Assembly: GCA_943349945.1 (NCBI GenBank)
Contig: CALQZS010000001.1
Span: 51,339-115,338 of the forward strand
Reading direction: 5' to 3'
Length of the DNA: 64,000 bases
Source: Candidatus Nomurabacteria bacterium
Lineage (GTDB): Bacteria; Patescibacteriota; Minisyncoccia; Phycocordibacterales; SBAW01
Each line of letters starts with the position of its first letter. The first letter of the stretch is position 1. Below the pieces are notes generated by a model. The model saw only the letters and a list, made by a program, of their open reading frames with translations. It ran no database searches and was not told the DNA's origin. A program made the translations under genes and the position numbers. Positions 23,097-57,802 of the stretch are shown in pieces.

Positions 23097-23490
23097 CCCC
23101 GCTTTTGGCGGGGCGTCTACAATATCTAGCGCGCGCGTCTGTAAGCCGAGTTCTGTCTCCGCCGGTTGGCGGAAGCAACAATTTATCTAGCTCGGGCGTT
23201 ACCGCCCGAGTCAAGCGGCACTCCCACACAAGGTGGGCACGGCCTTGCACTTGGACAAGGATTTAGCTCCGACACCCCGAAGGGGTCGGAGTCCCGGTTT
23301 ATTACGTCGGGACCGTTTCACTCCCACTGAAGGGACTCGTCTCTGTTCGCACCTCTGGTGCCCGCTAGCAGCACCCGATGGGGATTACCCACTGCCTGTC
23401 TGCACTCCACATTTCTGTAGAGGCAAGTGCTCGGACTTTCCTCTCTGACTATTCGTCAGAGCTGTTACTCGACGCGCTCTCTATATTGTA
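23097..23490 (-). ncRNA. rnpB: RNase P RNA (bacterial type)
   Basis: On the minus strand: P4 region GAGGAAAGTCCGAGCAC, GGGAGTGAAACGG, ACAGAACTCGGCTTACAG, and P1 pairing between the 23471-23490 and 23120-23140 regions. A hairpin follows at 23095-23116. Ends are approximate. Confidence 0.75.
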
Positions 23491-23929
23491 CCACAATTTT
23501 TTGCCCAACGCCAATGCCCGCCGCGGCAATATAGCCCGCAGGAACCTCCAGCACATAGCGCGCAGGCGCGTGTGGATAAAAAATCTTGGGGTAGGTATTG
23601 GGAGTAACATTTGGCCATACGGTCACAATCATCCCGTCGTCATCTGCCCAAATAATATCAATCGCAAATCGCATATCCTTCATCCAAAAACCCCACTTTC
23701 CAACTTGTGGAAACACAAACAGCATGCCGCTCCCTTGGGCGAGCGACTCCCGCCCAGAGAGTCCTTGTTGGCGCTTTGCCGGAGTATCTGCAACATCCAC
23801 CACCAATGTGTTACTACCGACAGTGATGCGTTCTGCTGTAGGCGCGGGCGTATGCTGCACTTGAAATACGCCCCACACAAGCAAGGCGACAGCACAAAAA
23901 ACAATTAATCCGAGTATATATTTGATCAT
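23465..23929 (-). CDS. DUF192-domain protein, membrane-anchored
   Basis: MIKYILGLIVF anchor and MLFVF...WMKDMRFAIDIIW motifs. The last ~9 codons overlap the inferred rnpB 5' end. Confidence 0.65.
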   Translation of the reverse strand: MIKYILGLIVFCAVALLVWGVFQVQHTPAPTAERITVGSNTLVVDVADTPAKRQQGLSGRESLAQGSGMLFVFPQVGKWGFWMKDMRFAIDIIWADDDGMIVTVWPNVTPNTYPKIFYPHAPARYVLEVPAGYIAAAGIGVGQKIVVQYRERVE

Positions 23930-25287
23930 AGTTGCCCACCGCAAGCGCGCAAAAATTGTTCGTGCATTTTTTGCAAATCGCCCTCGGGCATGGCGCCAAA
24001 CGTGTGTGCCGCATCTTCTGACTGGTCGCGAAATTGCTCGTCGCGCTCCAACACCCCAGGATGCACCTCGAACGTGCGCTTGTTCCATCCTAAAATGTAG
24101 AGTCCCGAAAGCCGACGCACACGCGAGAGCGCCACATACCCCTGCCCAAACTCGAAGGTATCGTGCAAGTCCATCACTGCTTCATCTAAACTCATACCCT
24201 GGCTTTTATGCACAGTAATGGCCCACGCTAGCCGCAGCGGCACTTGCGTGACTCGCGCATGCACCTTGCCCCCCTCTTCCACAGTCCACTCCATGGGTTC
24301 CACCTCGATAGAGCGCCCACTGCGGGTTACCACTGTCGGATATCCGTTGTAGCCACTAAACCCCTCAACCATACCGAGCGTGCCGTTGACGTAGCCCTCT
24401 TTGGGATTGTTTTTTGTAAACATAACTGACGCCCCTTTTTTGAGCTGTAAAACTTCCGGCGATATACAGCTTTTAACCAGCGCCGCCACTATTCCTGCAG
24501 TCCCCTGCGACGACATCGCAAATGACTTTTGGGTGCCGGGCAGCGCGCGCAGTGTCATATCGTTAATCCTGTCTACATCAGCATTGTGCGAAAAAAGTTT
24601 TGGTGCATTTTTGGGCACTTTGTGTGGCGCGACTTTGCGTGCGGCAATATGTTCTAGGTGTGTATCTCTAAATGTGTTTTTGCGTATCGCGTCGAGCACG
24701 CTCAAGTATGCATGGTCGTCTTGTCGGTGCTGTTCGGTTAGATAACACACAATAGGGTTTGCCCGTGCCCACACCGCGGCATCGTAGGCAAAGTGCGTGC
24801 GTGACTCGTCGACAAATAGGTCGTTATCTTCTTCTTGGGGCACGGCGCGCACAATAGGCGGTAGCTGAAAAAAGTCTCCAACCAACACCACTTGGAGCCC
24901 CCCAAAAGGTCGCGCACTACCTAACACTTCACGACACACCGCATCAACCATCGCAAGCGTGTTGTCGGCAAGCATCGACACCTCGTCGATAATTAAAATT
25001 TTGGTGCGGCGGATTTGCTTGACCACCCGCTCGAGCGAGGCGATGCGGTCAAGCTCGTAGGCATCGAGCTTTTGTTTGATGCCTATACCGCTCCAAGAAT
25101 GTACGGTCATGCCGCCTATATGCGTGGCGGCAATACCTGTAGAGGCGGTAATTGCCGGCTCTATACCCCGTGCACGCAACCATGCAATGTACTGGTTTAT
25201 AGTGTGCGTCTTGCCGGCCCCCGGCTCGCCGGTTAAAAACACATTTGCGCCAGTTTTGAGTATGTCGAGCGCTGTTTCTTGAGTCAT
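23926..25287 (-). CDS. PIF1/RecD-like ATP-dependent DNA helicase
   Basis: Walker A (GEPGAGKTH), ILIIDEVSM, VGDFFQLPP and HKSQGMSLD. Confidence 0.8.
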   Translation of the reverse strand: MTQETALDILKTGANVFLTGEPGAGKTHTINQYIAWLRARGIEPAITASTGIAATHIGGMTVHSWSGIGIKQKLDAYELDRIASLERVVKQIRRTKILIIDEVSMLADNTLAMVDAVCREVLGSARPFGGLQVVLVGDFFQLPPIVRAVPQEEDNDLFVDESRTHFAYDAAVWARANPIVCYLTEQHRQDDHAYLSVLDAIRKNTFRDTHLEHIAARKVAPHKVPKNAPKLFSHNADVDRINDMTLRALPGTQKSFAMSSQGTAGIVAALVKSCISPEVLQLKKGASVMFTKNNPKEGYVNGTLGMVEGFSGYNGYPTVVTRSGRSIEVEPMEWTVEEGGKVHARVTQVPLRLAWAITVHKSQGMSLDEAVMDLHDTFEFGQGYVALSRVRRLSGLYILGWNKRTFEVHPGVLERDEQFRDQSEDAAHTFGAMPEGDLQKMHEQFLRACGGQL

Positions 25288-25374
25288 AGGTATCTCAAAC
25301 TATACCAGAGAAGGCACGCCTGTGGTGGCTCGACCCAGATGCTGTAAAAGGCCCGAGGTTGTATACTGGTGTGT

Positions 25375-26067
25375 ATGGAATTAACACGCGGAAGTGCAGA
25401 GCTTGAAGCATTAAACGTACAGCTAAACAACGAAGAAGATTTGCTTGCCTATAAAAAGCCGCTCGACAACTACCACCCCGCGCTCGTACCGCGCTTACTG
25501 GGCCACACACTCGTGTGGTGCGGCAACACCGTGTACGGCAAGCGGCCATCGTATTTAAAATTCCGCGCAGTCGAGATTATTGCGCGCGTCCCCTACCACT
25601 CGTGGGCATCAGCTGCGTATACTATGTTGACGCTCTTTTACAATAACGAACAAAAAGCGATGCGCTTGTCCGAAACAGCAAAGTACGCACAACTTGCGCA
25701 AGACAATGAGACCATGCACGTCGTTGTTATATCGCAGCTAGCTAAACGCGAGCGTAAGGCTGGGTTTTTGCGCCACACGCTTGTACCGATGTTGTTTGCG
25801 TTTGTCTATTTTTGGGCATCATACTTGTTGTACTTGGTTAAACCGCGTTACTCGTACGAGCTTAACTACATGTTCGAAAACCATGCATTCGAACAATATA
25901 CTGAATTTATTCATCGCCATGAAGAGGGGCTTAAAAAGAAGCCTGTCGACAGCGCATTTCTTGCTTGGTATGGCCGCAACCCAGAAAATCAGTACGAGTT
26001 CTTTCGTTCTATACGCAACGACGAAATAATCCACCGCAACACCTCGATTGAAGAAATCGGAAGGTAA
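25375..26067 (+). CDS. alternative oxidase/plastid terminal oxidase-family di-iron carboxylate protein
   Basis: Four-helix ExxH signature: VEIIARVP, NETMH, ENHAFEQYTEF, RNDEIIHRN. Confidence 0.65.
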   Translation: MELTRGSAELEALNVQLNNEEDLLAYKKPLDNYHPALVPRLLGHTLVWCGNTVYGKRPSYLKFRAVEIIARVPYHSWASAAYTMLTLFYNNEQKAMRLSETAKYAQLAQDNETMHVVVISQLAKRERKAGFLRHTLVPMLFAFVYFWASYLLYLVKPRYSYELNYMFENHAFEQYTEFIHRHEEGLKKKPVDSAFLAWYGRNPENQYEFFRSIRNDEIIHRNTSIEEIGR

Positions 26068-26079
26068 AGTAAGGAGGGG

Positions 26080-26403
26080 TTAGCGGAGCTTTACCGCAGT
26101 CCCGTACGCTAAAATCTCGGCACCGCCACCAGCCACTTGCGACGTAGAGTAGCGCATACAGACAATAGCATCAGCACCCAACCCTTCCGCTTCCAAAAGC
26201 ATACGCTTGGTCGCCTCGTCGCGTGCAGACACAAACGCTTTTACATACCCCTTGATCTCGCCGCCAATAACGGAACGCAAGGATGCTACAATGTCGCTCC
26301 CTATGTGGCGTGTATAAATAGTATTGCCTTTAACCAATCCGAGAGTCTCTACAACCTCGCGCCCTGCAACCAATTCAGTAGTAGTGATGATGATATCTTT
26401 CAT
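26080..26403 (-). CDS. YbjQ/UPF0145-family protein
   Basis: 107-aa protein typical of the family (DIVASLRSVIGGE...YGTAV). Confidence 0.85.
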   Translation of the reverse strand: MKDIIITTTELVAGREVVETLGLVKGNTIYTRHIGSDIVASLRSVIGGEIKGYVKAFVSARDEATKRMLLEAEGLGADAIVCMRYSTSQVAGGGAEILAYGTAVKLR

Positions 26404-26433
26404 ATAACATTAGTATAGCAAATATAAAAAATA

Positions 26434-26455
26434 CCCCCGGGTTGTACCCCGGGGG
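26434..26455. terminator. intrinsic terminator (cccccggg ttgtac cccggggg) followed by a T-run on the minus strand
   Basis: GC hairpin followed by TATTTTTTATATTT in minus sense, downstream of the 26481..26741 gene. Confidence 0.6.
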
Positions 26456-26480
26456 CGTTGTATGCAGCAAACTGCTGCAA

Positions 26481-26741
26481 TTATACGTGCTGCATGTGTT
26501 CTGAAGTATATTTCTCCGCAATGGTCATACCCGGCCGGTAGACGAGCTCATGCCTGCCTGGCTTCTTTAGTTTGAAGCGCTCCTGTTGTACGTACACAAG
26601 GCCTTCTTCCGTTCGACGAATACGCTCGCAGAGAAAGACCCGACTGGTCAACACCAGCGCCTGCCCGATACCCGGAATATCGATTTCCGGAAGGCAAAAA
26701 CTGAACGAAGGCGGATATACTTTCTTAGGTTGCGACCACAT
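26481..26741 (-). CDS. hypothetical protein (86 aa)
   Basis: AAAGGAA RBS before the ATG, and a terminator directly downstream. No recognised motif. Confidence 0.35.
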   Translation of the reverse strand: MWSQPKKVYPPSFSFCLPEIDIPGIGQALVLTSRVFLCERIRRTEEGLVYVQQERFKLKKPGRHELVYRPGMTIAEKYTSEHMQHV

Positions 26742-26811
26742 TACGCGTTCCTTTGATAAATCTTGCAGGTACCATACCCTTAAATATAATACATCGAAAT
26801 ATAGAGAAGTA

Positions 26812-26893
26812 AAGCTGCGGAGGCGGAGAAACGATTCGGCTTCGATTCGCTGTCGCGCCGTCGCGCAACAGCGGTCTAGCCACCGCCTCGCAA
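26812..26893 (-). pseudogene. degenerate tRNA-Ser-like relic
   Basis: tgcggaggcggaga...gattcg matches the 3' end of tRNA-Ser(GGA) 190 nt away. Its 5' part (GCGAGGCGGTGGCTAGACC) is tRNA-like but cannot fold. Confidence 0.35.
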
Positions 26894-27007
26894 AAACTTT
26901 CTGCTGAAAGTTTTATGCTCCGGCGTTCGAATCTCTCACGCAAAGTACGCAGGTACTTTGCTCGCCTCTCGCAAAATCAAAACGCCCGTTTTGGGCGTTG
27001 GATTTTG

Positions 27008-27092: not shown

Positions 27093-27609
27093 GTGTGTGT
27101 AGTTATCGCATGCCGAGAGGTAAGTTTCAAGAAAAAAGAAAGCGACTCAAAAGAGTCGCTTAGTGTGAGTTGCTGCTACCTATTGCAGCGACCCTTGTAT
27201 TTTACCCGAAGCCAGCCCCTGCCCTTGTTTGGAGGAGCGTGGGCAGAGCCACGGCGCCGCGTGCGGTTGCCGCGAAGCGCACCACTGCGGGACTTCAAGA
27301 CCCCTTACCTTTCTTGTGGTTTCGATTTTGACCCCACAAAATGCTGTCGTAGTCGGCCACGGCACTCGTCGAGCGCTTGCCCGACTTCATAATGGCGGCG
27401 AGAGCCTGGTCATCCATACTTTGTGTTCTTTGACCGCTGCCGCGTCGCGGTGATGTAGAGGCCCTGGGCCTCCCTGAAAAAAGTTGGTAATCGTCGTTAT
27501 GTTTCAAGCCACGTCCCCTACTTTTTTGTACTCGGCACACAAACGCATTCTCCATTTTGGAGACCATCGTGCCAAAAATATCCTACAACACTAACGTACA
27601 GAAAGCAAA

Positions 27610-50285: not shown

Positions 50286-51005
50286 CTAGTGCCCGGCCAA
50301 ACGTATCACCACAAAGAGTACTGCTGCGCCAAAAATAGTCATCGCTGTTGTCCAAAACGCCGGATGCGCATGATGGCTTTCGGGCACCAACTCGGATGCG
50401 CCAATATAGAGGAAGAATCCCGAAAAGAGCGCGAGCAGTACAGCTAGCGTCCCCTCGCTAACCGAAAAGAAGAATGTAGATACGATACCGAGCATGGGCG
50501 CTGTGCCGTTTATAGCCAGCCACCGCAGCGCACGCAAGCGTTCGCCCCCGTGGCGAATGATGGCGTTGACTGTGTTGATACCGTCAGAAAATCCGTGTGC
50601 CAACACCGCGATACCAACCACTATGCCGGCCTCCAGCGACAACTGCGACGCTAGCCCCACACCCACACCATCCAAAAAGCTGTGTACCGAAAACGAGCCC
50701 GCCCGCATCTGCCCGCGCGACGGCGCATGATGCTCGGCGTCGGCATGGTTGTGCAACACCAGCACACGGTCGAGCAGCAAGTAGACCAAAAATCCAACTG
50801 CCACCAAAGACACGATGGTGTGCACCTCAAACCCGTGACCCATTTCAATCGCCTCGGGGATAAGATCAAAAAAAGCGACCGCAATAACCGCGCCAGCACC
50901 AAAGCCCAAAATCAAATGCAGCCTGTCGCGCAGCCGCAGCGCAAACAACCCCCCAAGCATCGTCGACGCAAACGCCGCAACTCCAACCAACAACATAGTA
51001 CTCAT
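50286..51005 (-). CDS. zupT: ZIP-family zinc transporter ZupT
   Basis: HNHADAEHH loop and LAHGFSDG. Start taken at MSTMLLVG. Confidence 0.85.
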   Translation of the reverse strand: MSTMLLVGVAAFASTMLGGLFALRLRDRLHLILGFGAGAVIAVAFFDLIPEAIEMGHGFEVHTIVSLVAVGFLVYLLLDRVLVLHNHADAEHHAPSRGQMRAGSFSVHSFLDGVGVGLASQLSLEAGIVVGIAVLAHGFSDGINTVNAIIRHGGERLRALRWLAINGTAPMLGIVSTFFFSVSEGTLAVLLALFSGFFLYIGASELVPESHHAHPAFWTTAMTIFGAAVLFVVIRLAGH

Positions 51006-51105
51006 GGTTAGAATATACACCCATGCACACATAATCGCATAATTGATTGACAAAAAGTATTTTTCGTACTATTATTAAAGAGATCGATCTTTGGAGAACT
51101 TGGAA

Positions 51106-52397: not shown

Positions 52398-53987
52398 ATG
52401 GATATACGTTCAGTACGGGCTCGGGCGGGTGCTTTTTTTGTGTCTATGCGCACTAAAGTAGTTGTACTTTGGGCAGGGTACCGCGCACGGCCACTGTGGC
52501 AGCAGGGACTTTTGGCACTTGTAGCACTTGCACTGCTCTGGGGCCTTTTTTCTTTTTTTACGACAAGCCCGACTGTAGAGTCTGCAAACAAACCTCGCGC
52601 CGTGGCGCTTGCTAGTGTGGGCGAGTTAAACGGCGGCTCAGTCGGCGGCAACTTCATAGGCACCGTGCGCTCAATAACCGAGGCAAATATTTTGGCACAA
52701 AGCGGCGGCACGGTGCGCGCAGTGCACGCTAGCTTGGGCAGATACATCCCTGCTGGATTTATCATTGCCGAACTCGACAATGCATCCGAGCGCGCAGCGG
52801 TGCTCCAAGCAGAAGGTTCGTACGAAGCAGCACTTGCCGCACGCACTGTGGCACAGCAGCAAGCACAAAACACCAACCAATCTTTGACCGAGGCTGCGGT
52901 GTCTGCACGCAACACCTACCGCAGCAGCTACACCACGCTCGACATCACGCTCAACACCTATGTCGATACTTTTTTTGGCTCCGCAACTTCGTTCGGGCCA
53001 AAGCTTCTTATTAACCCAGACTTGGGGCCTTACTACACCCTACCTAAAGCGCGCCGCGAAATAACCGACCAGATGCGCGATTGGAAAAATGCACTAGGCA
53101 CCGCACAAACACGCGACCCAGAAACACTGCTTGCAGAGGCCGAGGTGGTGGCACGCAGCATCTCTGACTTGCTGGTCAAGCTGGGTAGCGCAGCCAACCG
53201 CCGCGACTCTGGAGCTAACGCAACACAACTAAGCGCACTCGCCACAGCACAAACTACCGTCGATGCACAACTAACCGCGCTCTCCACCGCGCGCAGCTCA
53301 TACCGTGCCGCAGCAACTGCAGCCGCAGTGGGCAAAACACAAACCGAGTCTGGCACCGCCACAGCCAGCGCCGACGCCGCAGTCAAACAAGCACTGGGGG
53401 CGCTGCGCGGTGCACAAGCAAATTTTGAAAAAACAGTAGTCCGCGCACCCCTGGCCGGCACGATAAACTTCTTGCCGCTTCGCGTGGGCGACTATGTTAC
53501 CTCGTTTACCCATGTCGCAACGGTGGCACAAAACGGCGCGCTCGAGGTAGTTACCTATGTCTCGCAAGCCGACCGCGACTTACTCTCTGTGGGAGCCAAA
53601 GTAACTCTCGACGGGGCACCCGGCACTGTTACCTCCATTGCCCCAGCACTCGACCCCGTGCGCAAACAAATTGAGGTACGCATCGCCGCAGCAGCAGGCA
53701 GCACATTGGTCAACGGCCAGTCGGTGCAGGTACGCTTGGCGAGCGCTACCCCAAGCCCCACCACCAGCAAAGGTCCCACAACCCTTCCCCTCTCGGCAGT
53801 CAAACTCCTCACCGACAAGCGCATCGTGTTTGTGGTCGAGGATGGCCGCCTTGTAGCACAAGAAGTCGAGGTGGGCGAAGTACGCGGTGACCGCATCGAG
53901 ATAGTCAGTCCGCTTGCTGCCGACTTGCGCATTGTTGTAGACGCACGCGGCTTGGTCGACGGCGAAAAGGTAGTAACCCTCCCCTAA
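52398..53987 (+). CDS. efflux transporter periplasmic adaptor (membrane fusion protein)
   Basis: Anchor, coiled coil, and barrel-sandwich motif (VVRAPLAGTINFLPLRVGDYV). Confidence 0.75.
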   Translation: MDIRSVRARAGAFFVSMRTKVVVLWAGYRARPLWQQGLLALVALALLWGLFSFFTTSPTVESANKPRAVALASVGELNGGSVGGNFIGTVRSITEANILAQSGGTVRAVHASLGRYIPAGFIIAELDNASERAAVLQAEGSYEAALAARTVAQQQAQNTNQSLTEAAVSARNTYRSSYTTLDITLNTYVDTFFGSATSFGPKLLINPDLGPYYTLPKARREITDQMRDWKNALGTAQTRDPETLLAEAEVVARSISDLLVKLGSAANRRDSGANATQLSALATAQTTVDAQLTALSTARSSYRAAATAAAVGKTQTESGTATASADAAVKQALGALRGAQANFEKTVVRAPLAGTINFLPLRVGDYVTSFTHVATVAQNGALEVVTYVSQADRDLLSVGAKVTLDGAPGTVTSIAPALDPVRKQIEVRIAAAAGSTLVNGQSVQVRLASATPSPTTSKGPTTLPLSAVKLLTDKRIVFVVEDGRLVAQEVEVGEVRGDRIEIVSPLAADLRIVVDARGLVDGEKVVTLP

Positions 53988-53990
53988 CAT

Positions 53991-56900
53991 ATGACAAAAT
54001 TCTGGGTATTTTTTATTACCAAACACAACTTCACCATTTTGCTTGGTGTGGTGCTTATGGCGGCGGGCGTCTATACGGCCATTGCTATACCCAAAGAATC
54101 TTCTCCTGAGATCCAGATACCAATAGGGATCATCACCACCGTACTACCCGGCGCCTCGAGCGAAGACGTGGAGCGCCTTATCACCAACAAAGTCGAGGAC
54201 CGCGTACTTGGCGTCGAGAATGTATCCAAAGTTACCTCCACCTCGGGCGACGGTGTGTCGTCTATTACCGTCGAGTTTACCGCTTCGGCCAACATCGACA
54301 AATCTATCCAGCTCCTTAAAGACGAGGTAGACAAAGTTAAAGCAGAGTTGCCCGCCGAAGCCGAAGACCCAAGCGTCACCGACGTAAACTTTGCCGACCA
54401 GCCTATACTCATCGCCTCAATCTCGGGTGACTTGAGCCCCGCCGAGCTGACGACGTTGGGCGAAAGCGTTAAAGACGAACTAGAGCGTGTAGGCGGCGTG
54501 TCGTCTGTGTCGCTCTCGGGTGTGCGTGCCCGCCAAGTAACAGTGGTCGTCGAGCAAACAAAGTTGCGCCAGTACGGACTTACCTTGTCCGAGGTAACCG
54601 CCGCTATACGCGCCTCGGGCGTTGCATCGCCGCTTGGCTCTATCACGGTCAACAATATTTCTTATGCTGTCCGTCTTGAAGCGGGCGTGGGCGACACCTC
54701 GGACGTTGCCAACATTTCTTTTGTATCTAAAAGCGGCGCAGTGGTGCATGTGCGCGATGTCGCAAACGTCATAGACGGACTCGAAGACGCGCGCACCTAT
54801 TCGCGTGTGTCGGTCGAGGGCGCACCTTCATCCCCCGCACTTAGCTTGTCTGTGTTTAAAAGCCGCGGCGGAAACATAGTCGAGACAGGAGACGCAATCA
54901 AAGCCAAACTTGCCGAGCTCGAGAGCGGCCCCTTGGCAGGCACCAAAACAGTCATCTCCTACGACGCCGCTAAAGATGTGCAAAAAGACCTCACAGAGCT
55001 GACCCGTGTCGGGCTCGAGACTGTGGCGCTCGTGATGTTGATGCTGTTTTTGACCTTGGGCTGGCGCGAGTCTGTGGCTGCGGCACTGTCCATCCCCCTT
55101 TCTTTCCTTATTGCATTCATTGGTATATACGCCTCGGGCAACACCATAAACTTTATTTCTTTGTTCTCGCTTATTTTAGCCATCGGCATTTTGGTCGACT
55201 CCGGCATCGTAGTGGTCGAGGCGATACACACCCGTTTTGTCGAGCTACGCAACAAAAAAGAGGCTGCCGTGCTTGCGATACGTGAGTACGCTTGGCCGCT
55301 TATTGCCGGCACCTTTACCACCATAGCGGTGTTTGTACCGCTCTTCTTCCTCTCGGGCATTGTCGGCAAGTTTTTGGCCTCTATTCCGTTTACGGTTATC
55401 TTTGTGCTGCTTGCATCCATTTTGGTTGCGCTGGGTTTTGTGCCGCTTATTGCGCTTTACATTATCCGCCCGACCCTTTCACCTTTGGAGATTAAACAAG
55501 AGGAGTACAACGTACGCGCTAAACAATGGTACGAAGCATTTTTGCGCCGCATACTAGGGAACCGCAAAAACGAAAACCGCTTTTTGGCTGGTATAGTTCT
55601 GCTCTTTTTTATCGCCCTATCGCTCCCGGCCATTGGCGCGGTCAAGGTAGTCTTCTTCCCCGCAGAAAACGGCAACTTGGTTACTATCGAAGTTGAGAAG
55701 CCACAAGGCAGCACCCTTGCCGACACCGACTTGGCCGTGCGCGAAGTCGAAGAGGTGCTCTATGCCGACACCCGCATTGACTCGTTTGTAACCGAAGTAG
55801 GTAGCGGTAGCTCGTTTGCACAAAGTGGCCTCTCGGGTAGCCGCGCGGGCAACATCACCATAAACCTCGACCCAGATAAAAAAGAAACGAGCGCCGACAT
55901 CGTAGTCGACCTACGCCAAAAGCTTGACCCTATAACCTCGGCGCGCATCAGTGTGTCGGAACCTGCAGGCGGCCCACCAACCGCCGCAGCAGTAAGCATC
56001 ACACTGCAAGGCGACGACTTGGGTAGTTTGACCGCAGCCGTTACAAACGCGCAGCGCATTTTGGCAGACACTCCAGGCACCACAAACATCAACACTTCTA
56101 TGCGCGACAACAGCGCCGAGTTTGTGGTGTCGCTCGACACCGCACGCGCAGCCGAGCTGGGCGTGTCGCCCTTGGCCGTAGCCGACGTCTTGCGCACCGC
56201 GCTGTACGGCGCTAAAGCCACCGACATCCGCGGCGAAACAGATATAGAAGTCCGCACCAAACTCGACCTTAACCCTGCATACACCGACCCGTCTGAAACC
56301 ACGCACGTATCCATAGATGCAGTCCGCGAATTGAGCATCGCCGGAGCGCGCGGCCCCGTGCCACTTTCGAGCATCGCTACCATTTCCTACGAGCCTGCCA
56401 ACACCATCATCCGCCACGAAGACGGTACGCGCGTTGCAACACTCACCGCCGACGCAGCCGCAGGCGCCAACCCAATTGAAATAACCAACGCCTTCCGCAA
56501 AAACATGGAAGAGGTGCAGCTCCCCGAGGGAGTTGTGATGAAAATCGGCGGCGAGAGCGAAGACGTTAACCAGTCCTTTGCCGAAATGGGGCTCGCCCTC
56601 TTGGCAGGTGCGGCGTTGATGCTTGGAATATTGGTGTTGGAGTTTAACTCATTCCGCCACTCACTGTACCTGCTCTCTATAATCCCCTTCTCGCTTATTG
56701 GCGTATTGGTAGGGCTTATGCTCACTGGCTCGCCGCTTTCACTTCCGTCAATGCTCGGCGTTATTGCGCTTGCAGGCGTCATCATCAACCACGCCATTAT
56801 TTTGATGGACTCCATTGCCCGTATCAGCAAACAAAACCCAGGGCAAAGTTTGACCGACGTGGTGGTAACCGCATCCGCAAGCCGCTTCCGCCCCATATTG

Positions 56901-57092
56901 CTCACCACCGCCACCACTGTTGTGGGCATGATCCCGCTTTCGTTTGCATCGGCCATTTGGGGCCCGTTGGCATTCTCTATTATGTTTGGACTTGCCTTCT
57001 CTATGTTGCTCACACTGGTGCTTATACCTGTGCTCTATCACCGCTGGCCAGGCAAAGCTGTACGCGACCAGTTTGCTTCAACCACAAACTAA
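53991..57092 (+). CDS. RND-family efflux permease (AcrB-like)
   Basis: 1033 aa with 12 TM helices and two large loops. Conserved RND TM4/TM10 regions. Confidence 0.9.
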   Translation: MTKFWVFFITKHNFTILLGVVLMAAGVYTAIAIPKESSPEIQIPIGIITTVLPGASSEDVERLITNKVEDRVLGVENVSKVTSTSGDGVSSITVEFTASANIDKSIQLLKDEVDKVKAELPAEAEDPSVTDVNFADQPILIASISGDLSPAELTTLGESVKDELERVGGVSSVSLSGVRARQVTVVVEQTKLRQYGLTLSEVTAAIRASGVASPLGSITVNNISYAVRLEAGVGDTSDVANISFVSKSGAVVHVRDVANVIDGLEDARTYSRVSVEGAPSSPALSLSVFKSRGGNIVETGDAIKAKLAELESGPLAGTKTVISYDAAKDVQKDLTELTRVGLETVALVMLMLFLTLGWRESVAAALSIPLSFLIAFIGIYASGNTINFISLFSLILAIGILVDSGIVVVEAIHTRFVELRNKKEAAVLAIREYAWPLIAGTFTTIAVFVPLFFLSGIVGKFLASIPFTVIFVLLASILVALGFVPLIALYIIRPTLSPLEIKQEEYNVRAKQWYEAFLRRILGNRKNENRFLAGIVLLFFIALSLPAIGAVKVVFFPAENGNLVTIEVEKPQGSTLADTDLAVREVEEVLYADTRIDSFVTEVGSGSSFAQSGLSGSRAGNITINLDPDKKETSADIVVDLRQKLDPITSARISVSEPAGGPPTAAAVSITLQGDDLGSLTAAVTNAQRILADTPGTTNINTSMRDNSAEFVVSLDTARAAELGVSPLAVADVLRTALYGAKATDIRGETDIEVRTKLDLNPAYTDPSETTHVSIDAVRELSIAGARGPVPLSSIATISYEPANTIIRHEDGTRVATLTADAAAGANPIEITNAFRKNMEEVQLPEGVVMKIGGESEDVNQSFAEMGLALLAGAALMLGILVLEFNSFRHSLYLLSIIPFSLIGVLVGLMLTGSPLSLPSMLGVIALAGVIINHAIILMDSIARISKQNPGQSLTDVVVTASASRFRPILLTTATTVVGMIPLSFASAIWGPLAFSIMFGLAFSMLLTLVLIPVLYHRWPGKAVRDQFASTTN

Positions 57093-57802
57093 AGTCCTAC
57101 AACACCAAAAAGCTTTCCGACGCCGAATGTAATAATCATCGCCAAAGCGCCGCCCGCAATGTTGCGCAGTGTTGCTGTTTTTTTGTCCGCACCACCCACG
57201 TGTGCGCTCAAGCTCCCGGTGATAGCTAGCGCTACAAGTACTCCGGCAAAAATCGCCGGTACACGCATATACTCGGGTGTAAATACCATAGCCAGCGGTA
57301 TAATGCCGCCCACTAAAAATGATGCTGCGGAAGCATACGCCGCATGCCACGGGTTGGTTAGATCGTGTGGGTCGATACCCAACTCCGCGTCCACGTGCGC
57401 TGCGAATGCGTCTTTTGCCGTAAGCTCACGCGCGACCACGTGCGCTGTTTCGCTCGAGAGTCCCTTTTTTTGATAAATATCTGCAAGCTCCTCGAGCTCT
57501 TGTTCGGGATAATTTTCTAGTTCAAACCGCTCTTTTTGCAAGAGCGCTTTTTCGGTATCACGTTGTGTACTGACCGAGACATATTCCCCCACAGCCATAG
57601 ACAACGCGCCTCCCACAAGCGCCGCAACGCCTGCCGTCAAAATAAAATTCACATCCGCGGCAGCACCCGCCACACCCACCACCACTGCCGCCACCGACAC
57701 GATGCCGTCGTTAGCACCAAGTACGGCTGCGCGCAGCCAGTTAAGTTGTGAGCTATCAGTGCCGGTGTGCCATTCTGGATGAGCGTTTAGATGTGGTTGC
57801 AT
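57089..57802 (-). CDS. VIT1/CCC1-family iron/manganese transporter
   Basis: LRAAVLGANDGIVS signature. Confidence 0.8.
   Translation of the reverse strand: MQPHLNAHPEWHTGTDSSQLNWLRAAVLGANDGIVSVAAVVVGVAGAAADVNFILTAGVAALVGGALSMAVGEYVSVSTQRDTEKALLQKERFELENYPEQELEELADIYQKKGLSSETAHVVARELTAKDAFAAHVDAELGIDPHDLTNPWHAAYASAASFLVGGIIPLAMVFTPEYMRVPAIFAGVLVALAITGSLSAHVGGADKKTATLRNIAGGALAMIITFGVGKLFGVVGL

What the first reader, a model, noticed from the sequence alone, without database searches (positions are those of the whole stretch)
25375..26067. Alternative-oxidase/PTOX-family di-iron quinol oxidase homologue in a genome with no visible respiratory chain
The protein has the four-helix di-iron signature of AOX and PTOX (E..ARVP; NETMH; FENHAFEQYT; RNDEIIHRN). 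CPR-type bacteria generally lack quinones and electron-transport chains, so either a quinol pool exists or the protein has a different di-iron function, such as oxygen scavenging. It sits between a PIF1-like helicase and ybjQ, with no partner genes.
Basis: partly seen in the sequence, partly recalled or inferred. Interest (0 to 1): 0.6.

Follow-up and report, generated by a model that had tools for sequence, protein, structure and literature searches.

The report
Overlooked alternative-oxidase-like enzyme in ultra-small bacteria
This gene encodes a compact, strongly conserved relative of the oxygen-reducing di-iron quinol oxidases AOX and PTOX, found in many ultra-small Paceibacteria (CPR) that are thought not to respire, so it is a likely but untested way for them to remove oxygen.

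Summary

It is neither a canonical AOX nor a canonical PTOX, because it fails the diagnostic motifs of both. It belongs to a separate compact clade (about 230 aa). That clade is sister to a large uncharacterised clade from Acidobacteria/Rokubacteria-type bacteria, and both are closer to PTOX than to mitochondrial AOX.

The clade occurs in at least 218 GTDB species genomes. Nearly all of the 80 listed are labelled Patescibacteria/Paceibacteria. It is under strong purifying selection and has no conserved partner gene. No quinone-biosynthesis or respiratory genes were seen in the 64 kb window or in about 1.5 Mb of related flanks.

The most likely function is a membrane-bound, non-pumping quinol:O2 oxidoreductase that uses scavenged quinone to remove oxygen or balance redox. 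The substrate is inferred, not shown.

Databases already call these proteins "alternative oxidase". The CPR oxygen-reductase surveys I read examined or reported only heme-copper and bd oxidases.

The parts
25375..26067 (+). Coding sequence of the AOX/PTOX-like di-iron protein (230 aa from the ATG; 232 aa if the GTG at 25369 is used)
   Evidence: ORF list and translation. Pfam AOX 50 bits, E=3.8e-13. 962 homologues found. dN/dS 0.02-0.07.
25288..25374 (.). Divergent intergenic region between the PIF1 helicase gene (-) and the oxidase gene (+). It holds GAGG at 25355-25358 and a TATACT box at 25362-25367.
   Evidence: Read directly from the sequence. The consensus promoter scan found no full sigma-70 site here, so the expression signals are inferred only.
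25483..25536 (+). Helix of residues 37-54 (LVPRLLGHTLVWCGNTVY), which precedes the first ligand helix. It is the candidate counterpart of the membrane-facing helix alpha-1 of TAO.
   Evidence: Predicted helix in a segment where 10-residue block means of pLDDT are 91-94; mean hydrophobicity 0.34. Equivalence to TAO alpha-1 is inferred.
25570..25593 (+). Ligand motif 1, VEIIARVP. E67 is iron ligand 1 (= TAO E123). K62, just upstream, aligns with TAO R118.
   Evidence: Invariant E67, A70, P73, Y74. Profile alignment to TAO.
25705..25719 (+). Ligand motif 2, NETMH. E112 and H115 are iron ligands (= TAO E162, H165).
   Evidence: Invariant N111, E112, H115. Alignment to TAO.
25765..25839 (+). Very hydrophobic helix, residues 131-155 (FLRHTLVPMLFAFVYFWASYLLYLV). 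This is the probable membrane-anchoring helix (counterpart of TAO alpha-4).
   Evidence: Kyte-Doolittle 19-residue maximum of 1.82 at residues 137-155. Predicted helix 131-155. It aligns with the TAO segment IIITQAIMYLFLLVAYVISP.
25873..25902 (+). Ligand motif 3, FENHAFEQYT. E168 is an iron ligand (= TAO E213). H170 is the PTOX-type residue in place of the AOX Glu. Y175 is the catalytic tyrosine (= TAO Y220).
   Evidence: Invariant E168, H170, A171, Y175. Alignment to TAO.
26014..26040 (+). Ligand motif 4, RNDEIIHRN. E217 and H220 are iron ligands (= TAO E266, H269).
   Evidence: Invariant D216, E217, H220. Alignment to TAO.

Best explanation
The gene encodes a functional, membrane-associated di-iron carboxylate oxidase of the AOX/PTOX superfamily. 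Two Glu-x-x-His motifs and two further glutamates on a four-helix bundle bind a di-iron centre. That centre, with Tyr175, reduces O2 to water using electrons from a lipid-soluble quinol, and no protons are pumped. The host lineage (Paceibacteria, CPR) appears to make neither quinones nor a respiratory chain. The quinone is therefore most likely acquired from a host or the environment together with scavenged membrane lipid. The physiological role is most likely oxygen removal and/or re-oxidation of a small quinone pool, not energy conservation. Shown here: family membership, intact active-site residues, an AOX-like predicted fold, a hydrophobic membrane helix, strong purifying selection, wide distribution in Paceibacteria, and solo gene organisation. 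Inferred: the quinol substrate, the source of the quinone, the electron donors and the physiological role.
For: Family and active site:
- Pfam AOX scores above its cut-off.
- Six ligands plus Tyr are invariant in 24 close and 33 divergent relatives and map onto the TAO ligands.
- K62 occupies the position of TAO R118. That R118 lines the quinol/inhibitor pocket is my own knowledge.

Fold:
- AF2 model pLDDT 84.6, pTM 0.86.
- Foldseek gives probability 1.00 only to TAO chains.

Membrane association:
- KD19 hydropathy of 1.82 at residues 137-155.
- Some orthologues add a C-terminal transmembrane tail.

Functional constraint:
- dN/dS of 0.02-0.07.
- The protein is as conserved as LepA or GroEL between related genomes.
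- Its GC content matches the surroundings, and synteny with close relatives is conserved.

Relatives:
- The sister clade lies in Acidobacteria/Rokubacteria-type bacteria and is named ubiquinol oxidase or alternative oxidase by its sources.
- The nearest annotated hits are cyanobacterial and cyanophage PTOX.

Precedent:
- Orphan cyo quinol-oxidase operons occur in CPR genomes without quinone biosynthesis and have been interpreted as O2 scavengers (PMC8407418; PMC5220378; PMC9166423).
Against: - No quinone-biosynthesis gene, NDH-2-like flavoprotein or other quinone reductase was seen in the 64 kb window or by coarse motif screens of 1,550 ORFs flanking 80 orthologues. Neither substrate nor electron donor is therefore identified.
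- There is no conserved operon partner.
- The protein fails the diagnostic motifs of both AOX and PTOX.
- Two pocket positions differ from TAO: Q174 in place of T219 and H170 in place of E215. Substrate specificity cannot be transferred with confidence.
- No member of this clade or its sister clade has been characterised, to my knowledge.
- The structural evidence rests on a predicted model.
Confidence: 0.6

Rival explanations
1. Same fold and di-iron centre, but quinone-independent. The enzyme would take electrons from another donor (a soluble redox protein, a flavin, or another lipid-soluble reductant). Alternatively it would act as an oxygenase or hydroxylase on a membrane lipid or scavenged metabolite. 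Either way it would be a single-gene O2-consuming or lipid-modifying enzyme fitted to a quinone-less cell.
For: - No quinone biosynthesis or quinone reductase was seen nearby or in sampled flanks.
- The clade has its own invariant residues and fails the AOX and PTOX diagnostic motifs.
- The second-best structural neighbour is COQ7, a di-iron hydroxylase. A weak COQ7 Pfam signal was also seen (E=0.023).
- Thiol-redox genes (TrxR/AhpF-like, DsbD_TM) occasionally lie nearby.
Against: - The COQ7 score is below Pfam's cut-off (14.8 against 23.5).
- The catalytic Tyr, and the basic residue aligned with TAO R118 (its pocket role is my knowledge), are conserved.
- From my own knowledge, all characterised members of PF01786 are quinol oxidases.
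- The occasional redox neighbours are not conserved and are mostly on the opposite strand.
Confidence: 0.25
2. It is an ordinary terminal oxidase of a complete, energy-conserving respiratory chain. That chain, with endogenous quinone synthesis, would be encoded elsewhere in this genome.
For: - Only 64 kb of a genome of roughly 0.8 Mb was visible.
- Some Parcubacteria do carry unusual respiratory components (PMC5220378).
- Some carry cyo or bd oxidases (PMC9166423).
Against: - CPR surveys report near-universal absence of electron-transport chains and quinone biosynthesis (PMC7507113; PMC8672522; PMC8407418).
- Nothing respiratory was found in the window or in 1.5 Mb of orthologue flanks.
- From my own knowledge, AOX-type enzymes do not pump protons.
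Confidence: 0.08
3. It is an artefact. The gene would be a mis-binned or contaminating fragment, a recent foreign insertion, or a decaying pseudogene.
For: - Two GTDB records carrying the gene are labelled Gammaproteobacteria and Bacillota.
- Gene neighbourhoods vary widely between genomes.
Against: - The gene lies inside long CPR contigs of up to 424 kb among core CPR genes.
- The same protein was recovered on 21 contigs read; the four shown are from four different samples.
- GC content is the same as the flanks.
- Synteny with the nearest relatives is conserved.
- The reading frame is intact and dN/dS is 0.02-0.07.
- The two oddly labelled records share Patescibacteria-type neighbours.
Confidence: 0.02

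Closest known systems
Trypanosoma brucei alternative oxidase (TAO; PDB 3VV9, 3VVA, 5ZDP and others), representing mitochondrial/proteobacterial AOX
   Same: - All six ligands and the catalytic Tyr align.
- A hydrophobic helix sits at the position of the membrane-binding helix.
   Different: - Only about 17% identity in the core.
- TAO is not found by the protein itself or by a profile of its own clade.
- It has ETMHVVV in place of ERMHLMT and FENHA in place of LEEEA.
- It is about 230 aa, against 329 aa for the full-length TAO chain sequence, and has a different, clade-specific N-terminus.
- Its host lacks a visible respiratory chain.
Plastid/plastoquinol terminal oxidase (PTOX/IMMUTANS) of plants, algae, cyanobacteria and cyanophages
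   Same: - PTOX is the nearest annotated sequence relative. Nostoc and Acaryochloris plasmid genes give 25-30% identity, E 1e-11 to 1e-13. Cyanophage PTOX gives 29%, E 3e-5.
- Both share the E-x-H-A form of ligand motif 3 and ARVPY in motif 1.
   Different: - It lacks the PTOX diagnostic motifs GW.RR and HHLL.ME.
- It lacks the extra 10-35 residues that PTOX-like sequences carry between helix 3 and motif 4.
- It falls on the other side of a split with 200/200 bootstrap support.
- Its host is non-photosynthetic and has no plastoquinone pathway in view.
Uncharacterised compact 'ubiquinol oxidase/alternative oxidase' clade of Acidobacteria, Rokubacteria and other bacteria (here called G2; motifs NEQWHLL, FEDHAEHEY, DER.HK)
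   Same: - It is the sister clade. CPR clade plus G2 separate from PTOX plus TAO in 200/200 NJ bootstraps.
- Size is similar, 218-250 aa.
- The ligands and Tyr are the same.
   Different: - About 28% identity, with distinct motif variants.
- From my own knowledge, the phyla named in its records are generally respiring bacteria that make quinones.
- No experimental data are known to me for either clade.
Orphan cytochrome bo3 (cyo) or bd quinol-oxidase operons reported in Saccharibacteria and some Parcubacteria
   Same: - The biological puzzle is the same. A quinol-type O2 reductase sits in CPR genomes without quinone biosynthesis or a full chain, and is interpreted as O2 scavenging or detoxification (PMC8407418; PMC5220378; PMC9166423; PMC9938205).
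   Different: - The protein family is unrelated (heme-copper or bd, against di-iron).
- Those are multi-subunit operons that need heme, against a single 230-aa gene.
- The bo3 type pumps protons, whereas AOX-type enzymes do not (my knowledge).
- The CPR oxygen-reductase surveys I read examined or reported only HCO and bd families.

Membership tests
AOX/PTOX membrane-bound di-iron carboxylate superfamily (Pfam PF01786) | Significant match to the family profile above the curated cut-off | tested here: met
   50 bits, E=3.8e-13, cut-off 22.7, profile positions 55-211 of 216. 32 of 33 divergent relatives also match.
AOX/PTOX membrane-bound di-iron carboxylate superfamily (Pfam PF01786) | Six iron ligands: four Glu and two His, arranged as E, ExxH, E, ExxH on four helices | tested here: met
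   E67, E112, H115, E168, E217 and H220 are invariant. They align with TAO E123, E162, H165, E213, E266 and H269.
AOX/PTOX membrane-bound di-iron carboxylate superfamily (Pfam PF01786) | Conserved catalytic tyrosine seven residues after the third ligand Glu (TAO Y220) | tested here: met
   Y175 is invariant and aligns with TAO Y220.
AOX/PTOX membrane-bound di-iron carboxylate superfamily (Pfam PF01786) | AOX-type four-helix-bundle fold | tested here: met
   [not shown]
AOX/PTOX membrane-bound di-iron carboxylate superfamily (Pfam PF01786) | Interfacial (monotopic) membrane binding through hydrophobic or amphipathic helices | tested here: inconclusive
   Helix 131-155 has a KD19 hydropathy of 1.82. 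It aligns with the TAO segment IIITQAIMYLFLLVAYVISP, which from my knowledge belongs to a membrane-facing helix. Some orthologues carry an added C-terminal transmembrane tail. Topology was not determined.
AOX/PTOX membrane-bound di-iron carboxylate superfamily (Pfam PF01786) | Cyanide-insensitive quinol:O2 oxidoreductase activity producing water | not testable with these tools
   This needs biochemistry. No quinone source or quinone reductase was identified in the window or the flanks.
Alternative oxidase sensu stricto (mitochondrial/proteobacterial AOX) | Diagnostic motifs ERMHLMT and LEEEA (Nobre et al. 2016, as used in the PASV preprint) | tested here: not met
   The query has ETMHVVV and FENHA. 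No sequence among the top 150 representative relatives carries NERMH or LEEEA.
Alternative oxidase sensu stricto (mitochondrial/proteobacterial AOX) | Direct sequence similarity to characterised AOX | tested here: not met
   TAO was not retrieved by phmmer or by the clade profile A1 at E<=10. It was retrieved only by the broad profile A2, at E=1.8e-11. Core identity is about 17%.
Plastoquinol terminal oxidase sensu stricto (PTOX) | Diagnostic motifs GW.RR and HHLL.ME | tested here: not met
   The query has no GW.RR, and it has MHVVVIS where PTOX has HHLL.ME.
Plastoquinol terminal oxidase sensu stricto (PTOX) | E-x-H-A form of the third ligand motif | tested here: met
   FENHA in the query. H170 is invariant across the CPR, G2 and PTOX-like sequences.
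Plastoquinol terminal oxidase sensu stricto (PTOX) | Extra segment between helix 3 and the fourth ligand motif (the 'exon 8' region, from my own knowledge of PTOX) | tested here: not met
   PTOX-like sequences carry 10-35 additional residues in alignment columns of about 390-435. The CPR and G2 clades lack them.
Plastoquinol terminal oxidase sensu stricto (PTOX) | Groups with PTOX in a phylogeny | tested here: not met
   The CPR clade is recovered in 199/200 bootstraps. CPR plus G2 separate from PTOX plus TAO in 200/200. This is NJ on simple distances, with TAO as the only canonical AOX.
COQ7 / demethoxyubiquinone hydroxylase (PF03232) | Match to the family profile above the cut-off | tested here: not met
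   [not shown]

The most novel reading that the evidence does not exclude
This single-gene di-iron oxidase, rather than the rare cyo or bd operons, would be the main oxygen-reducing enzyme of Paceibacteria. It would work without any endogenous quinone pathway. One route is oxidation of host-derived quinol acquired with scavenged membrane lipid, which would make the symbiont a drain on, or dependent of, its host's quinone pool. The other route is a non-quinone electron donor. Either way, an overlooked oxygen metabolism in supposedly strictly fermentative CPR bacteria would become directly testable.
Probability: 0.3. Interest if true: 0.75.

Novelty: new variant of a known kind. Interest (0 to 1): 0.5.

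Why it matters
CPR/Patescibacteria are usually described as non-respiring fermenters. The oxygen-reductase surveys I read examined or reported only heme-copper and bd oxidases. One of them found such genes in only 0.6% of Patescibacteria single-cell genomes (PMC7507113). A 2025 study still asks how CPR cope with, and even benefit from, oxygen (PMC12577380).

Here, a one-gene AOX/PTOX-like oxidase is strongly conserved and present in at least 218 species-level genomes; nearly all of the 80 listed are labelled Patescibacteria/Paceibacteria. It is a concrete candidate for oxygen removal in these cells. It also sharpens the open question of whether CPR use quinones they cannot make.

The protein is small and should be easy to express, so the question can be tested at the bench. 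Together with its sister clade in Acidobacteria/Rokubacteria-type bacteria, it also defines a third, uncharacterised branch of the AOX/PTOX superfamily.

Tried and rejected
- NCBIfam gave no hit for the protein.
- PDB sequence searches with the single protein and with the clade profile A1 did not retrieve TAO. Only the broadened profile A2 did.
- The afdb50 fold library was unavailable.
- The listing of cluster members returned no names or taxonomy for the sister-clade representatives.
- A first NJ analysis was invalid, because saturated distances gave NaN values. It was redone with capped distances and split-based support.
- Guilt-by-association over 80 loci found only lineage-specific, mostly opposite-strand neighbours: cobalamin adenosyltransferase, an EamA transporter, a small membrane protein, riboflavin kinase, GH18, DsbD_TM, an aldo-keto reductase and a TrxR/AhpF-like protein. 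None is a conserved partner.
- The DAO-family flavoprotein next to the gene in L008 looks like an amino-acid or glycine oxidase-type enzyme, not glycerol-3-phosphate dehydrogenase. It occurs beside the gene only once.
- Motif screens of 1,550 flanking ORFs for NDH-2-like flavoproteins, UbiA-type prenyltransferases, trans-prenyl synthases and DsbB/VKOR-like CxxC membrane proteins found nothing convincing. These screens are coarse, so this is weak negative evidence.
- The promoter scan found no consensus sigma-70 site in the upstream intergenic region.
- No phage or plasmid carries a close homologue. Only cyanophage and cyanobacterial PTOX appear, at 25-30% identity.
- Literature searches for 'alternative oxidase' with Parcubacteria, Patescibacteria or CPR returned nothing relevant, apart from one passing mention of a single CPR hit.
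- The supplements of the freshwater CPR study contain no AOX term in the stored text.
Full report
**1. The observation**

Window 25375-26067 (+) is an intact ORF of 230 aa. It is 232 aa if the GTG at 25369 is used, as in the database entry P0001.
- VEIIARVP at 25570-25593
- NETMH at 25705-25719
- FENHAFEQYT at 25873-25902
- RNDEIIHRN at 26014-26040

Pfam AOX (PF01786) matches at E=3.8e-13 and 50 bits, against a curated cut-off of 22.7, over profile positions 55-211 of 216. The only other family reported is COQ7, below its cut-off (14.8 against 23.5 bits). NCBIfam has no model for the protein.

**2. Genomic setting**

The neighbours are as described:
- a PIF1-like helicase (23926-25287, -), divergent from the oxidase gene
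- YbjQ (26080-26403, -), convergent with it
- further out: DUF192, an RNase P RNA, a TPR membrane protein, MurJ and LepA on one side
- tRNA-Ser, HtpX, LemA and GroEL/GroES on the other

GC content is uniform across the region.

The identical protein was recovered on 21 contigs read; the four shown are from four different samples, with contigs of up to 424 kb and the same neighbours. This rules out an assembly artefact.

The rest of the window encodes typical CPR housekeeping genes. These include FtsA/FtsZ, TsaD, LeuRS, RNase J, LexA, a TrxR-like flavoprotein, glutamate dehydrogenase, transporters and proteases. There are no quinone-biosynthesis, NADH-dehydrogenase or cytochrome genes.

**3. 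Distribution**

The protein search returned 962 homologues. The best 120 are 66-100% identical. Where a source names them, they are 'alternative oxidase' from Candidatus Paceibacterota, Kaiserbacteria, Adlerbacteria, Minisyncoccia or Parcubacteria.

A pattern-based scan of one genome per GTDB species found 218 genomes encoding a relative. This is a lower bound, because only two exact peptide patterns were used. Nearly all of the best 80 are Patescibacteria/Paceibacteria MAGs from groundwater, lakes, soil and drinking water.

The closest species representative is 84% identical. It is MoH-23oct19-148, classified as Paceibacteria; UBA9983_A; UBA2163; GWA1-54-10, with an estimated genome size of 0.83 Mb.

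**4. Active site and fold**

In 24 close homologues (A1) and in 33 sequences spanning all relatives found (A2), these residues are invariant: E67, A70, P73, Y74, N111, E112, H115, E168, H170, A171, Y175, D216, E217 and H220.

The single protein and the narrow clade profile do not retrieve any solved structure. The broad profile A2 retrieves Trypanosoma brucei alternative oxidase at E=1.8e-11. Its alignment gives this residue mapping:

| Query | TAO |
|---|---|
| E67 | E123 |
| E112 / H115 | E162 / H165 |
| E168 | E213 |
| Y175 | Y220 |
| E217 / H220 | E266 / H269 |
| K62 | R118 |
| H170 | E215 |
| Q174 | T219 |

An AlphaFold2 model built from A1 has mean pLDDT 84.6 and pTM 0.86.
- Foldseek against the PDB gives probability 1.00 only to TAO chains, with TM 0.55-0.59. 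The next hit has probability below 0.1.

Helix 131-155 is the most hydrophobic segment (KD19 1.82). It aligns with the TAO segment IIITQAIMYLFLLVAYVISP, which from my knowledge belongs to a membrane-facing helix. Some orthologues add a C-terminal transmembrane tail.

Membership of the AOX/PTOX di-iron superfamily is therefore established as far as sequence and predicted structure allow.

**5. Which branch of the superfamily**

Published diagnostic motifs are ERMHLMT plus LEEEA for AOX, and GW.RR plus HHLL.ME for PTOX (Nobre et al. 2016, as applied in the PASV preprint). The query has ETMHVVV and FENHA. It has no GW.RR, and it has MHVVVIS where PTOX has HHLL.ME. It therefore fails both sets.

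An exhaustive HMM search of 1.84 billion cluster representatives found 495 clusters at E<=1e-3. The top 150 fall into three motif groups, and none carries the canonical AOX motifs:
- the query's clade: NETMH, FE.HA, RNDE..HR
- a second compact bacterial clade, G2: NEQWHLL, FEDHAEHEY, DER.HK
- PTOX-like sequences: NELHHLLIM, VE.HA..TY, RDDE..H

Mean core identities from the query's clade are 28% to G2, 25% to PTOX-like sequences and 17% to TAO.

In neighbour-joining bootstraps:
- the query's clade is recovered in 199/200
- G2 is recovered in 185/200
- the split (CPR clade + G2) against (PTOX + TAO) is recovered in 200/200

The caveats are simple distances and a single canonical AOX sequence.

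G2 contains more than 4,352 proteins. Where named, they are 'ubiquinol oxidase' or 'alternative oxidase' from Acidobacteria and Rokubacteria MAGs.

Direct tblastn against annotated records hits only two groups:
- cyanobacterial plasmid genes of Nostoc and Acaryochloris, 25-30% identity, E 1e-11 to 1e-13
- cyanophage 'plastoquinol terminal oxidase', 29% identity, E 3e-5

PTOX-like sequences also carry an extra 10-35 residues before the fourth motif, which the CPR clade lacks.

The protein is thus a third, compact variant, nearer to PTOX than to mitochondrial AOX.

**6. Is it functional and native?**

- dN/dS against the two nearest orthologues is 0.02-0.07, and dS is saturated for the rest.
- Between related genomes the oxidase is 84% or 77% identical. 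That is as conserved as LepA (85% or 83%) and more conserved than MurJ (77% or 68%) or the TPR protein (65% or 53%). Against a more distant genome it is 72% identical, against 69% for GroEL.
- The LepA-MurJ-TPR-DUF192-oxidase order is kept in the nearest relatives.

Together these indicate vertical inheritance under strong constraint within this lineage.

**7. Partners**

ORFs from 80 related loci (about 1.5 Mb, 1,550 ORFs) were clustered. No gene family is consistently adjacent. The most frequent neighbours were identified by Pfam:
- PduO-type cobalamin adenosyltransferase, 12 times, convergent
- an EamA transporter, 8 times, convergent
- a small membrane protein, 9 times, divergent

All three are lineage-specific synteny on the opposite strand.

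A DsbD_TM/CcdA gene lies 39-42 bp upstream on the same strand in three loci labelled Yonathbacteria, Paceibacterota and Nomurabacteria (L027, L041, L043). A TrxR/AhpF-like flavoprotein lies within 10 kb in about five loci. A DAO-family amino-acid-oxidase-like gene abuts the oxidase once. None of these is general.

Coarse screens for NDH-2-like flavoproteins, UbiA-type prenyltransferases, trans-prenyl synthases and DsbB/VKOR-like proteins in these flanks were negative.

**8. Mechanism**

The best-supported reading is a membrane-bound di-iron quinol:O2 oxidoreductase that reduces O2 to water without pumping protons, like AOX and PTOX. This rests on the conserved ligands, the catalytic Tyr, the basic residue aligned with TAO R118, the TAO-like predicted fold and the hydrophobic helix.

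The quinol substrate, its origin and the electron donors are inferred. CPR genomes are reported to lack quinone biosynthesis and most of the electron-transport chain (PMC7507113; PMC8672522; PMC8407418). The quinone would therefore have to be scavenged, plausibly together with host-derived lipid.

The role would be O2 removal or redox balancing. This is the interpretation already given to orphan cyo operons in CPR (PMC5220378; PMC9166423; PMC9938205).

The main rival is a quinone-independent di-iron oxidase or oxygenase. It cannot be excluded, because the clade differs at pocket positions and no quinone-linked gene was found.

**9. Novelty**

The family is not unknown to databases, which label it 'alternative oxidase' or 'ubiquinol oxidase'. 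One eukaryote-centred AOX phylogeny noted a single CPR hit in passing and ascribed it to transfer from proteobacteria (PMC9540462).

I found no study of the clade itself. The CPR oxygen literature I read examined or reported only heme-copper and bd oxidases, and its stored supplements contain no AOX term.

I rate it a new variant of a known kind. It is of moderate interest because it offers a simple, testable handle on oxygen use and quinone dependence in CPR bacteria.

**10. Limits**

- Only 64 kb of this genome was visible.
- Structural inferences rest on a predicted model.
- The tree is NJ with one canonical AOX.
- The GTDB count is a pattern-based lower bound.
- Several MAG titles (for example 'uncultured Candidatus Saccharibacteria', and one 'Gammaproteobacteria' and one 'Bacillota') are submitter labels that may be inaccurate.

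Noticed in passing
window 23126-23480 (-): A bacterial class A RNase P RNA (RF00010, 106 bits, full length) lies between the TPR membrane-protein gene and the DUF192 gene. It overlaps the 3' end of the DUF192 gene (23465-23480), whichever start is used. Separately, the gene call in L001 is 154 aa, against 207 aa for the longest ORF (23465-24088), so the real DUF192 start is probably near 23929.
   Followed up: partly
window 52398-57092 (+): This CPR genome carries an HlyD-type membrane-fusion protein followed by a full-length AcrB/RND pump (607 bits to ACR_tran). That is unexpected if these cells lack an outer membrane. No outer-membrane factor gene was seen next to the pair.
   Followed up: no
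window 57089-57802 (-), 50286-51053 (-), 26080-26403 (-): Several metal-handling genes lie within the window: a VIT1-family iron transporter, a ZIP transporter, and YbjQ ('putative heavy-metal-binding'), which is directly convergent with the di-iron oxidase gene. No functional link was shown. YbjQ was found at the equivalent position only in the closest relatives (L010, and the same-species contigs L001-L004).
   Followed up: partly
L035 and L068 (GTDB records CAYZYJ010000007.1, JBLNCF010000017.1): Records titled 'uncultured Gammaproteobacteria bacterium' and 'Bacillota bacterium' carry the CPR-type oxidase. Their neighbouring genes are shared with Patescibacteria loci (L016, L058). The bins are probably mislabelled or contaminated.
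   Followed up: partly
P0074, P0115, P0119 (for example L020, Parcubacteria bacterium C7867-001): A subset of orthologues carries an extra C-terminal hydrophobic tail of about 30-40 residues that looks like a transmembrane anchor. The window protein lacks it.
   Followed up: no
L027 994-1701, and the equivalent genes in L041 and L043: In three loci (labelled Yonathbacteria, Paceibacterota and Nomurabacteria) a DsbD_TM/CcdA-type thiol-disulfide membrane transporter gene lies 39-42 bp upstream of the oxidase on the same strand. This is the only operon-like arrangement seen, and it hints at a link to thiol redox in that sub-lineage.
   Followed up: partly
window 25355-25377: A TATACT (-10-like) box at 25362-25367 lies only 7 nt before the conserved ATG at 25375. 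GAGG at 25355-25358 lies 10 nt before the alternative GTG at 25369. The transcript may therefore be leaderless from the ATG, or translated from the GTG. The true start was not resolved.
   Followed up: no
window 26404-27006 and 27093-27609: Two stretches of about 0.5-0.6 kb flank tRNA-Ser(GGA) and have no recognised gene. One holds an 86-aa ORF (26481-26741, -) that is also called in related contigs but has no Pfam match. No Rfam family reached threshold there.
   Followed up: partly
P0136-type proteins: A very large family (more than 4,352 proteins) of compact AOX-like proteins of about 218-250 aa exists in Acidobacteria, Rokubacteria and other bacteria. It has its own motif set (NEQWHLL, FEDHAEHEY, DER.HK). 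It appears to be uncharacterised and is the sister group of the CPR clade.
   Followed up: partly
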